The notes under the pieces are model-generated. The model was not told the origin of the DNA and made no database searches. It saw nothing but the letters and a program-made list of their open reading frames with translations. A stretch of 64,000 nucleotides of DNA, taken from the IMG/VR virus record IMGVR_UViG_3300005613_000025, positions 27,723 through 91,722 of that record. One strand, 5' to 3'. This DNA comes from a virus. Below are positions 58,813 to 62,510 of this stretch, piece by piece. Made by a program: the position numbers and the translations under genes. Position 1 is the stretch's first letter. Each line of letters begins with the position of its first letter.

Positions 58813-58941
58813 CTTATTGAATTTTTCCTTGTGATTACTTCTTTTGCGTTGTTTTCTTGATCCAACACGCTTTTTTGTTTGTTCTATTCTTTTTAGCTTA
58901 TCGCCCCCAAGTCTTCCATGATTTCTTTGATTTTACTTTTG

Positions 58942-59017
58942 TGGAGGTTATGGAATTCGAATCCATCTGATTTCCGCTTTGCAAAAGCGGTGACCACTCC
59001 AAGCAGTCCCAACCCCC
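58942..59017 (-). tRNA. tRNA-Ala(UGC)
   Basis: Acceptor GGGGGTT/AACCTCC with G3:U70; anticodon arm CCGCT-TTTGCAA-AGCGG; TTCGAAT T-loop. Confidence 0.92.
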
Positions 59018-59022
59018 TTATT

Positions 59023-59097
59023 TGGAGCAAAATGTGGGATTCGAACCCCGTCCCCGCATTGGAAGTGCGGTGCTTTGCCAGTTAAGCTACATCTTGC
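59023..59097 (-). tRNA. tRNA-Gly(UCC), encoded CCA
   Basis: CCGCA-CTTCCAA-TGCGG; U73 discriminator; 8-9 bp acceptor with a short T-stem. Confidence 0.9.
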
Positions 59098-59107
59098 TTA
59101 TTATCAG

Positions 59108-59188
59108 TAGGCGAGGTGGGATTTGAACCCACGTTTCCAACGTACCACTACGAATATCCAAGGTATAAGCTTGGCTCGGTACTCGCCC
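59108..59188 (-). tRNA. Non-canonical D-armless tRNA-Ile(UAU)-like RNA
   Basis: GGGCGAG/CTCGCCT acceptor, CCAAG-CTTATAC-CTTGG arm, GTGGG-TTCAAAT-CCCAC T-arm; only 7 nt where the D-arm should be. Confidence 0.7.
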
Positions 59189-59190
59189 AT

Positions 59191-59224
59191 AAAAAAACCC
59201 AGTCAAACTAAGTCTGACTGGGTT
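59191..59224 (-). terminator. Intrinsic terminator/attenuator immediately upstream of the Ile-Gly-Ala tRNAs
   Basis: AACCCAGTCAGAC-TTA-GTTTGACTGGGTT plus T-run on the minus strand. Confidence 0.85.
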
Positions 59225-59251
59225 ACATTAATTCTTTAACTTTGAATTACT

Positions 59252-59323
59252 TTACATAACACAGCCATTGACTGACGCTCCCGCGCCGCCTCCGATTATC
59301 GCTATGTTAGTTATTGTTTTCAT
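59252..59323 (-). CDS. Leader peptide MKTITNIAIIGGGAGASVNGCVM (Ile/Gly/Ala-sensing)
   Basis: Read manually; 3 ATA, 2 GGA and 3 GCG codons; lies between promoter motifs and the terminator. Confidence 0.8.
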   Translation of the reverse strand: MKTITNIAIIGGGAGASVNGCVM

Positions 59324-59398
59324 TGTTAATTATATTATCTATATATTAAAAAGTTTTTCTCTCTTTTTTCTTTCTTTTACAAAAGTAAGGATTATTTT

Positions 59399-62416: not shown

Positions 62417-62510
62417 TGGGAAACGAAGGAATTGAACCTCTAAACTCCATACCAGTCACTATTTTGTTAACGGAGAAGGGTTTTACAGACCCTTTGTGAC
62501 AACGCTTCCC
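62417..62510 (-). tRNA. Non-canonical D-armless tRNA-Tyr(GUA)-like RNA
   Basis: GGGAAGCG/CGTTTCCC acceptor, AAGGGT-CTGTAAA-ACCCTT arm, GAGG-TTCAATT-CCTT T-arm, ~35-nt variable region. Confidence 0.7.

What the first reader, a model, noticed from the sequence alone, without database searches (positions are those of the whole stretch)
59108..59188. D-armless tRNA-like RNA with a UAU anticodon and an enlarged variable region
Seen: acceptor, anticodon and T arms are well formed, but only TACCGAG lies between the acceptor and anticodon stems. The ~25-nt variable region contains CGTA-GTGG-TACG, which is D-loop-like (GTGGTA), and its GGTAC can alternatively pair with the upstream GTACC. Established: most bacteria read AUA with lysidine-modified tRNA-Ile(CAU); UAU anticodons are rare, and D-armless tRNAs are known mainly from mitochondria. 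Inference: a topologically rewired tRNA or a nuclease decoy. The ATA codons in its own leader peptide argue that it is functional.
Basis: partly seen in the sequence, partly recalled or inferred. Interest (0 to 1): 0.82.

Follow-up and report, generated by a model that had tools for sequence, protein, structure and literature searches.

The report
Phage isoleucine tRNA with rewired D-arm
This 81-base gene of a giant AT-rich phage is very probably a working isoleucine tRNA for the codon AUA. Its D-arm is not lost but split, with one half before and one half after the anticodon arm, a layout shared by over a hundred phage tRNAs that I found in no paper.

Summary
On the minus strand (59188 to 59108) lies an 81-nt tRNA-like gene with a 7-bp acceptor stem, a 5-bp anticodon stem, a CUUAUAC loop (anticodon UAU), a 5-bp T stem, A73 and no D hairpin.

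It is not a one-off or a decayed gene. I collected 105 distinct relatives from 73 viral contigs. All have Ile (UAU, GAU) or Arg (UCU, UCG, ACG) anticodons, apart from one CAU.

Covariation supports four helices. One is a new 3-bp helix (nt 11-13 with 36-38) that encloses the anticodon arm. It is followed by an invariant UAGYGG that reads like D-loop A14-R15-Y16-G18-G19. The R15-like base covaries with the base before the T stem (G-C 75, A-U 29), as the Levitt pair does. All 25 Arg-type members keep an A20-like A.

In a related 635-kb phage an ordinary tRNA-Ile(UAU) sits in the same leader-ORF and terminator cassette. ATA makes up 49% of the window's Ile codons.

Expression, charging and the 3D fold are untested. 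This scan had already reached the same reading on other phage DNA, and I reproduced it independently. I found no paper describing the layout.

The parts
59182..59188 (-). Acceptor stem, 5' strand (RNA nt 1-7, GGGCGAG)
   Evidence: Pairs with 59109-59115. All 7 pairs covary in the family.
59179..59181 (-). U8, A9, C10. U8 and A9 are invariant; C10 is C in 59 of 60. Read as U8, an A21-like A, and position 22.
   Evidence: U8 and A9 invariant and C10 59/60 in the 60 sequences of A1. 'TA' follows the acceptor stem in all 105 of A3. The equivalence to canonical positions is inference.
59176..59178 (-). New long-range helix, 5' strand (nt 11-13, CGA), equivalent to D-stem positions 23-25
   Evidence: Pairs with 59151-59153. 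In A1, pair 12:37 is GC 31 / AU 29 and pair 13:36 is GC 30, AU 13, UA 10, GU 3, CG 1, other 3. RNAalifold predicts it de novo.
59158..59174 (-). Anticodon arm (nt 15-31): stem CCAAG/CUUGG, loop CUUAUAC, anticodon UAU at 59165-59167
   Evidence: All 5 stem pairs covary and 100% of cells are paired. C32, U33, A35, U36 and A37 are invariant.
59154..59157 (-). 4-nt bulge AUAU (nt 32-35). The first A is invariant (A44-like).
   Evidence: A invariant in A1. The equivalence is inference.
59151..59153 (-). New long-range helix, 3' strand (nt 36-38, UCG), equivalent to D-stem positions 10-12
59145..59150 (-). D-loop-like UAGUGG (nt 39-44), read as 13, A14, R15, Y16, G18, G19
   Evidence: U, A, G and GG are invariant in A1. 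The R15-like base covaries with the base before the T stem: GC 75, AU 29, other 1.
59134..59144 (-). Conserved single-stranded joiner UACGUUGGAAA (family consensus ..GUUGAAAA)
   Evidence: Highly conserved, with no covarying partner found. Its role is unknown.
59133..59133 (-). C56, the Y48-like partner of G41
59116..59132 (-). T arm (nt 57-73): GUGGG UUCAAAU CCCAC
   Evidence: 4 of 5 pairs covary. The GGUUC.A..CC core is conserved.
59108..59115 (-). Acceptor stem 3' strand (CUCGCCU) and discriminator A73 (59108). No CCA is encoded.
   Evidence: A73 is present in all Ile-type members.
59196..59224 (-). Terminator-like hairpin (13-bp stem, then U7) ending 2 nt before the tRNA
   Evidence: Conserved before the tRNA in L011, L012, L026, L031 and L002.
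59252..59323 (-). 23-codon leader ORF MKTITNIAIIGGGAGASVNGCVM (3 ATA, 3 GCG codons)
   Evidence: Homologous small ORFs occur in L011, L012, L031 and L002.
58941..59097 (-). Downstream canonical tRNA-Gly(UCC) and tRNA-Ala(UGC), on the same strand

Best explanation
It is a functional elongator tRNA-Ile(UAU) that reads the phage's abundant AUA codons, built on a non-cloverleaf secondary structure. The nucleotides that normally form the D-arm are all present but in a different order. After U8 comes an A (A21-like) and then the strand that corresponds to D-stem positions 22-25. That strand runs straight into position 26 and the anticodon arm. After the anticodon arm and a 4-nt bulge comes the strand that corresponds to positions 10-13, which pairs back across the anticodon arm. 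Next comes A14-R15-Y16-G18-G19, and then an 11-nt joiner leading to Y48 and the T arm. The result is a three-way junction in which the D-stem equivalent still stacks on the anticodon stem. U8-A14, R15-Y48 and G18G19/T-loop contacts can still form, so the molecule can adopt the L shape that RNase P, the CCA-adding enzyme, IleRS, EF-Tu and the ribosome need. Shown here: the four helices, the R15:Y48-type covariation, the family, its anticodons and its genomic context. Inferred: the one-to-one mapping onto canonical positions, the 3D fold, processing, charging by host IleRS and decoding. Why the topology is kept is unknown. My leading guess is that it escapes a nuclease or modification enzyme that reads the D hairpin.
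For: (1) Family: three pattern scans of IMG/VR gave over 100 loci. Model R1 separates 105 distinct members in 73 loci (42-103 bits) from ordinary tRNAs (about 31 bits or less).
(2) Structure: 98.7% of cells are paired and the covariation score is 0.767, against 0.19 in shuffles and 0.13 or less in slid controls. 18 of 20 pairs have double changes, including 2 of 3 pairs of the new helix. RNAalifold finds the same structure unaided.
(3) Tertiary signature: the R15-like and Y48-like bases are GC 75, AU 29, other 1. U8, A14-like A and GG are invariant.
(4) Identity elements: anticodons are only UAU 53, GAU 26, UCU 12, UCG 10, ACG 3 and CAU 1. A73 is present in all Ile-type members. An A follows GG (A20-like, the ArgRS determinant by established knowledge) in 25 of 25 Arg-type members, against mostly U or G in Ile-type members.
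(5) Context: 100 of 105 members have a canonical tRNA within 1 kb, and 479 of 479 such neighbours are on the same strand.
(6) Synteny: the same promoter-like box, leader ORF and terminator precede the rewired tRNA here and in L011, L012 and L031, with a partial view in L026. In LR745206 they precede a canonical tRNA-Ile(UAU), followed there too by tRNA-Gly(UCC).
(7) Demand: ATA is 49% of Ile codons, 41.9 per 1000 codons, in a window of 32% GC.
(8) In the same loci canonical Ile(GAU) is common but canonical Ile(UAU) is rare (4 loci), so the rewired gene is usually the only UAU isoacceptor seen.
(9) No dedicated synthetase is needed. LR756502 (complete) and a 95%-complete 436-kb record carry the tRNA but no class Ia tRNA-synt_1 gene, and none of the five records has an ArgRS gene.
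Against: The new helix is only 3 bp, and its C11-G38 pair is invariant among the Ile-type seed sequences. Single-sequence folding rarely predicts the helix (7 of 60). For the window's copy the consensus fold is -22.3 kcal/mol against an MFE of -25.4 that uses GUACC/GGUAC. The 13-22 equivalent is a U.C mismatch. A1 was selected with acceptor and T-stem pairing filters, and A3 was fitted to the model, so those counts lean towards the structure; the new helix and the anticodon stem were not selected for. C38 instead of A38 breaks the 36-UAA-38 determinant reported for bacterial t6A37 synthesis (PMC13276492 abstract).
Confidence: 0.8

Rival explanations
1. tRNA mimic or decoy. The RNA folds like a tRNA-Ile and soaks up a host anticodon nuclease, toxin or tRNA-modifying enzyme, but does not itself deliver isoleucine on the ribosome.
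For: The unusual D region could impair translation factors while keeping an exact anticodon loop. T4 Rnl1-like RNA ligase and PNK/CPD-like genes lie near the arrays in 5-6 of 73 loci, which points to conflict over tRNA cleavage in these phages.
Against: The 7/5 acceptor/T branch, A73, the A20-like base in Arg-type members and the Levitt-type pair are all conserved. A decoy for an anticodon nuclease would not need aminoacylation determinants. It also occupies the slot of a canonical tRNA-Ile(UAU) in a conserved cassette, and is usually the only UAU isoacceptor in loci from genomes rich in ATA.
Confidence: 0.08
2. Decaying pseudogene: an ordinary tRNA-Ile that recently lost its D-arm and gained junk in the variable region.
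For: ARAGORN does not call it. A close relative has an ordinary tRNA at the same place.
Against: It is 81 nt, longer than the canonical 75-nt gene. The same layout occurs in 105 distinct sequences with compensatory changes in every helix and invariant loop positions. Both facts are incompatible with neutral decay.
Confidence: 0.02
3. tRNA-like regulatory or processing element of the tRNA operon, for example a structure that guides RNase P/Z processing or takes part in attenuation with the upstream leader and terminator, rather than a decoder.
For: It starts 2 nt after a strong terminator-like hairpin that follows a conserved leader ORF.
Against: Most family members sit inside tRNA arrays without this cassette. 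The anticodon is restricted to Ile and Arg triplets, with matching identity elements.
Confidence: 0.05

Closest known systems
Canonical bacterial or phage elongator tRNA-Ile(UAU) (Rfam RF00005), e.g. the syntenic gene L002:1709-1783 in LR745206; by my own knowledge also Mycoplasma mobile tRNA-Ile(UAU)
   Same: 7-bp acceptor stem, A73, 5-bp anticodon stem, C32-U33-UAU-A37 loop, 5-bp T stem with a GGUUC.A..CC T arm, the same operon position, and the same presumed job (AUA decoding without lysidine).
   Different: There is no D hairpin between nt 9 and 26. The D-stem strands flank the anticodon arm and the D-loop-like segment follows it. The junction is three-way instead of four-way. An 11-nt conserved joiner replaces the variable loop.
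Metazoan mitochondrial D-armless tRNAs (e.g. mt tRNA-Ser(AGY); PMC9427863, PMC7609411)
   Same: No D hairpin, and only a short connector between the acceptor and anticodon stems.
   Different: Mitochondrial forms have truly lost the D-arm and the D/T-loop contacts, are shortened, and use adapted partner proteins. Here the full set of core nucleotides (U8, A14, R15:Y48, G18G19, canonical T loop) is kept, the length is 81 nt, and the host is bacterial.
Engineered 'mini HisT' lacking the D-arm, usable by E. coli translation (PMC11551756)
   Same: It shows that bacterial aaRS, EF-Tu and ribosomes can accept a tRNA without a D hairpin.
   Different: It is artificial, with the D-arm simply deleted. 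That paper's abstract states that all known bacterial tRNAs are canonical cloverleaves.
Circularly permuted tRNA genes of Cyanidioschyzon merolae (own knowledge)
   Same: Standard tRNA segments occur in a non-standard order in the gene.
   Different: There the gene is permuted, and processing through a circular intermediate yields a canonical mature tRNA. Here both acceptor strands are at the gene ends, so the mature RNA itself would be rewired.
allo-tRNAs with an 8/4 or 9/3 acceptor/T branch (PMC5389517, PMC7609411)
   Same: Non-canonical tRNAs found in metagenomes and phages, with UAU among their common anticodons.
   Different: allo-tRNAs keep a D-arm and have a long variable arm and a shifted 8/4 or 9/3 branch. 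This family has a 7/5 branch and no D hairpin.

Membership tests
Canonical cloverleaf tRNA (Rfam RF00005) | Score at or above the curated gathering threshold (29 bits) | tested here: met
   38.8 bits. The relative in L001 was not reported at E<=0.01.
Canonical cloverleaf tRNA (Rfam RF00005) | 7-bp acceptor stem with discriminator, 5-bp T stem with a 7-nt T loop, and 5-bp anticodon stem with a 7-nt loop carrying U33 and purine 37 | tested here: met
Canonical cloverleaf tRNA (Rfam RF00005) | D-arm hairpin (stem 10-13/22-25 closing the D loop) between nt 9 and nt 26 | tested here: not met
   Only 7 nt lie between the stems. cmscan deletes 15 model positions. The covarying partner of nt 11-13 lies after the anticodon arm.
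Canonical cloverleaf tRNA (Rfam RF00005) | Tertiary core: U8-A14, R15-Y48 and G18G19 with the T loop | tested here: inconclusive
   Sequence equivalents are invariant, and the R15:Y48-like pair covaries GC 75 / AU 29. Physical contacts were not tested.
Canonical cloverleaf tRNA (Rfam RF00005) | Processed, CCA-ended, aminoacylated and used in translation | not testable with these tools
   96.6 bits to R1. This is row 1 of A1.
Mitochondrial-type D-armless tRNA | Loss of the D-loop/T-loop interaction nucleotides and reduced size | tested here: not met
   GG and a canonical UUCAAAU T loop are conserved, and the length is 81 nt.
allo-tRNA | 8/4 or 9/3 acceptor/T branch with a D-arm and a long V-arm | tested here: not met
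   7/5 branch and no D hairpin.
Circularly permuted tRNA gene | 3' half encoded upstream of the 5' half, so the acceptor strands are internal to the gene | tested here: not met
   The acceptor strands are the two ends of the gene.

The most novel reading that the evidence does not exclude
The rewired D-arm is an adaptation, not an accident. By removing the D hairpin while keeping the L shape, phages make their rare-codon tRNAs (Ile-AUA, Arg-AGA/CGA) invisible to a nuclease, toxin or modification enzyme that reads the D-arm, whether that enzyme is a host defence or a phage weapon against host tRNAs. Phage translation would then continue when canonical tRNAs are disabled. In this megaphage clade the gene may in addition be under codon-sensing leader-peptide attenuation.
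Probability: 0.25. Interest if true: 0.95.

Novelty: new variant of a known kind. Interest (0 to 1): 0.85.

Why it matters
Outside organelles, tRNAs are taken to be universally cloverleaf-shaped; a 2024 NAR paper says so for bacteria (PMC11551756). This family would be a natural, widespread exception with two unusual properties:
- It shows that the tRNA core can be wired in another strand order and still satisfy bacterial processing, charging and decoding machinery.
- It concerns the rare-codon tRNAs that AT-rich phages depend on.

It matters for annotation, because ARAGORN called only 11 of 105 members, all with extended boundaries and one without an amino-acid assignment, so phage tRNA repertoires and codon-usage analyses are incomplete. 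It matters for RNA structural biology as a natural permutation of the most studied RNA fold. It matters for synthetic biology as a candidate orthogonal tRNA scaffold. It may also matter for phage-host conflict over tRNAs.

Tried and rejected
- GUACC/GGUAC, which is the MFE fold of the window's copy: no covariation. It is broken without compensation in 11-13 of 60 sequences and is impossible in several Arg-type members.
- A mini-hairpin inside the GUUGAAAAC joiner, and a second 'anticodon loop' UUGGAAA: considered by eye on A1 and A2 and rejected, because the loop triplet and the middle pair are not conserved.
- Weak Rfam hits to mascRNA, YrlA and Y RNA (18-20 bits, far below their cut-offs): chance.
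- L003: a chance coding match. L008 and L034 are other RNAs that have a D arm.
- Genome-contig scan: 9 of 10 hits, all in Bacteroidota genomes, are not this RNA.
- BLAST of two family members against 50,697 GenBank phage records found only the uncultured LR756502, so no cultured carrier is known.
- A search for a co-occurring dedicated IleRS or ArgRS found none that is consistent across records.
- Neighbour-gene clustering gave mostly homing-endonuclease-like ORFs.
- Seven literature searches and three papers read gave no description of this layout.

Full report
**What is there**

The finding lies on the minus strand. Read from 59188 down to 59108, it is an 81-nt RNA with these parts:
- a 7-bp acceptor stem (GGGCGAG/CUCGCCU, with a G1.U72 wobble) and discriminator A;
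- a 5-bp anticodon stem (CCAAG/CUUGG) with loop C-U-UAU-A-C;
- a 5-bp T stem (GUGGG/CCCAC) with loop UUCAAAU.

Only UACCGAG separates the acceptor and anticodon stems, and 25 nt separate the anticodon and T stems. Rfam's tRNA model matches at 38.8 bits (cut-off 29), but only by deleting the D arm and inserting 22 nt. ARAGORN calls the neighbouring tRNA-Gly(UCC) and tRNA-Ala(UGC) but not this gene.

The window is part of a 91.7-kb IMG/VR viral fragment estimated at 16% complete, which points to a genome of about 570 kb. Its GC content is 32%.

**It belongs to a large conserved family**

BLAST against GenBank phages found one relative of the RNA, in the 642-kb uncultured phage LR756502. That copy has the same layout, the same UAU anticodon, and a fully compensated anticodon stem (GCAUC/GAUGC).

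Five pattern scans of IMG/VR brought in over 100 loci. Sixty distinct Ile-type sequences were aligned as A1. A covariance model built from A1 (R1) scores family members at 42-103 bits and ordinary tRNAs at about 31 bits or less. With it I collected 105 distinct members from 73 loci as A3.

Each of four huge-phage records searched whole holds 2-4 copies, and the window's own record holds only this one. A scan of 185,579 prokaryotic species genomes with the strict Ile-type pattern gave one true member. It lies on a 19-kb tRNA-array contig binned with a Methanosarcinales MAG, probably a phage contig. No cultured phage in GenBank matched by BLAST.

**Secondary structure**

On A1, four helices are supported:

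| Helix | Window nt | Evidence |
|---|---|---|
| Acceptor | 1-7 / 74-80 | All 7 pairs covary |
| Anticodon stem | 15-19 / 27-31 | All 5 pairs covary; 100% of cells paired |
| T stem | 57-61 / 69-73 | 4 of 5 pairs covary |
| New helix | 11-13 / 36-38 | 12:37 is GC 31 / AU 29; 13:36 is GC 30, AU 13, UA 10, GU 3, CG 1, other 3; C11-G38 invariant |

Overall, 98.7% of cells pair. The covariation score is 0.767, against 0.19 for shuffles and 0.13 or less for slid registers. RNAalifold predicts exactly this structure without guidance. On the wider A3 the first pair of the new helix also varies (CG 100, UA 5).

Their 78-82% pairing comes only from invariant letters. GUACC/GGUAC also cannot form in several Arg-type members.

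One caveat applies. Nearest-neighbour folding of single sequences seldom finds the 3-bp helix (7 of 60). The window's own MFE fold uses GUACC/GGUAC at -25.4 kcal/mol, against -22.3 for the consensus. The support for the new helix is comparative, not thermodynamic.

**Reading the layout as a permuted D-arm**

Directly after the 3' strand of the new helix comes the invariant U-A-G-Y-G-G. This is the order 13, A14, R15, Y16, G18, G19 of a normal D loop. U8 and the A after it are invariant, and the base just before the T stem is C.

In A3 the R15-like base and that pre-T-stem base covary as G-C (75) or A-U (29), with one exception. That is the behaviour of the R15:Y48 Levitt pair (established knowledge).

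The simplest mapping, which is inference, is as follows:

| Window nt | Canonical equivalent |
|---|---|
| 8 | U8 |
| 9 | A21 |
| 10-13 | 22-25 |
| 14 | 26 |
| 15-31 | anticodon arm |
| 32-35 | 44-47 |
| 36-39 | 10-13 |
| 40-44 | 14-19 |
| 45-55 | conserved joiner |
| 56 | Y48 |

The D-stem equivalent is then continuous with the anticodon stem on the same strand as in a normal tRNA (25-26-27). The L-shaped core could form from a three-way junction.

**Evidence that it works as a tRNA**

- Anticodons in the 105 members are only UAU (53), GAU (26), UCU (12), UCG (10), ACG (3) and CAU (1), that is Ile and Arg apart from the one CAU.
- All Ile-type members have A73.
- All 25 Arg-type members have an A right after GG, equivalent to A20, the major ArgRS determinant. 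Ile-type members mostly have U or G there.
- The 12-bp acceptor/T branch is 7/5.
- 100 of 105 members have a canonical tRNA within 1 kb, and all 479 such neighbours are on the same strand.
- In those loci canonical tRNA-Ile(GAU) is common but canonical Ile(UAU) is rare (4 loci), so the rewired gene is usually the UAU isoacceptor.
- ATA is the commonest Ile codon in the window's genes (646 of 1321 Ile codons; 41.9 per 1000 codons), and AGA is the commonest Arg codon.
- LR756502 and a 95%-complete 436-kb record carry rewired tRNA-Ile but no class Ia tRNA-synt_1 gene. No ArgRS gene is found in any of five records, so host synthetases would have to charge these tRNAs.

**Synteny**

Upstream of the gene lie a promoter-like AAAACUUUUUAAUAUAUA box, a 23-codon ORF (59323-59252) and a 13-bp terminator-like hairpin with a U7 tail that ends 2 nt before G1. 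The same cassette precedes the rewired tRNA in L011, L012 and L031, and partly in L026.

In the 635-kb phage LR745206 the same cassette precedes an ordinary 75-nt cloverleaf tRNA-Ile(UAU), followed as here by tRNA-Gly(UCC). Rewired and canonical genes are thus interchangeable at one regulated slot. The rewired gene is the longer of the two, which rules out a simple D-arm deletion.

Three ATA among four Ile codons matches the 49% background. The conserved AAC-AUA codon pair and three GCG codons, when GCG is only 5% of Ala codons, are more striking. That belongs to a separate note of this scan (e1-5988152).

**What is not shown**

- No 3D model is available.
- There is no charging or decoding test.
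- Why the topology is maintained is unknown.
- T4 Rnl1-like ligase and PNK/CPD-like genes near a few arrays hint at conflict over tRNA cleavage, but this is circumstantial.
- C38 in place of A38 departs from the 36-UAA-38 determinant for bacterial t6A37 (PMC13276492). However, the canonical phage Ile(UAU) genes in L001 and L002 also have U38.

**Comparison with what is known**

It works like, and is probably descended from, ordinary tRNA-Ile, but it fails the defining D-hairpin feature of the cloverleaf.
- It is not a mitochondrial-type D-armless tRNA, because the core nucleotides and the length are kept.
- It is not an allo-tRNA, because the branch is 7/5 and there is no D hairpin.
- It is not a permuted gene of the Cyanidioschyzon type, because the acceptor strands are at the gene's two ends.

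Seven full-text searches and three papers read found no description of it. PMC11551756 states that all known bacterial tRNAs are canonical cloverleaves.

This scan's own earlier follow-ups on other phage DNA reached the same reading. I arrived at it before seeing them. New here are the Levitt-pair and A20 statistics, the syntenic swap with a canonical gene, the absence of a dedicated synthetase, and the codon-demand figures.

**Verdict**

This is a real, conserved and apparently undescribed variant of tRNA architecture. The window's copy is a typical member. I put the confidence that it is a functional tRNA-Ile(UAU) at 0.8.

Noticed in passing
window 59196-59387 (minus strand): A promoter-like box, a 23-codon ORF (59323-59252) and a strong terminator-like hairpin (59224-59196) sit directly before the tRNA. 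The cassette is conserved in L011, L012, L031, L026 (partly) and L002. The ORF uses GCG for 3 of 3 Ala codons although GCG is 5% of Ala codons in the window, and it keeps a conserved AAC-AUA. The downstream tRNAs are Ile(UAU), Gly(UCC) and Ala(UGC). There is no room for a promoter after the terminator, so tRNA synthesis seems to need read-through.
   Followed up: partly
window 62417-62510 (minus strand): A second non-cloverleaf tRNA-like gene with anticodon GUA (Tyr). GUCAC before the anticodon arm is complementary to GUGAC after it, and UGGUA follows, all inside a CUCC../..GGAG long arm. This is the same rewiring idea in a class II tRNA. Model R1 does not match it.
   Followed up: partly
L002:1709-1783 (LR745206): The syntenic canonical tRNA-Ile(UAU) has an odd T loop, AUCGUUA, instead of UUCRAAU.
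   Followed up: no
L002:1005-1128: A 124-nt match to Rfam tRNA (40.9 bits) that ARAGORN did not call, just upstream of tRNA-Tyr. It may be another non-standard tRNA with a long insertion.
   Followed up: no
A3 alignment (105 family members): Position 38 is a pyrimidine in 50 of 53 UAU-type members but A in most GAU-type and UCU-type members. The UAU type thus lacks the 36-UAA-38 motif reported as required for bacterial t6A37.
   Followed up: partly
A1 columns 35 and 54 (window nt 34 and 51): The third base of the post-anticodon bulge and the fourth base of the joiner change together (A with G in 46 sequences, G with U in 14). This is either one clade's history or a tertiary contact.
   Followed up: no
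A1 columns 1 and 83: The first acceptor pair is G.U in 31 of 60 members, including the window's copy. This is unusual for elongator tRNAs.
   Followed up: no
L092:7146-8294, L035:9234-10172 and homologues in 5-6 loci: T4 Rnl1-type RNA ligase and AAA_33 plus CPD (PNK-like) genes lie next to the tRNA arrays. These are the classic tRNA-repair pair used against anticodon nucleases.
   Followed up: partly
L124-L132 (Flavobacteriia, Marinifilum and Prevotellaceae genomes): Nine Bacteroidota genomes match the 20-base degenerate pattern but hold neither this RNA nor any tRNA nearby. The match is probably a conserved coding segment. Unexplained.
   Followed up: no
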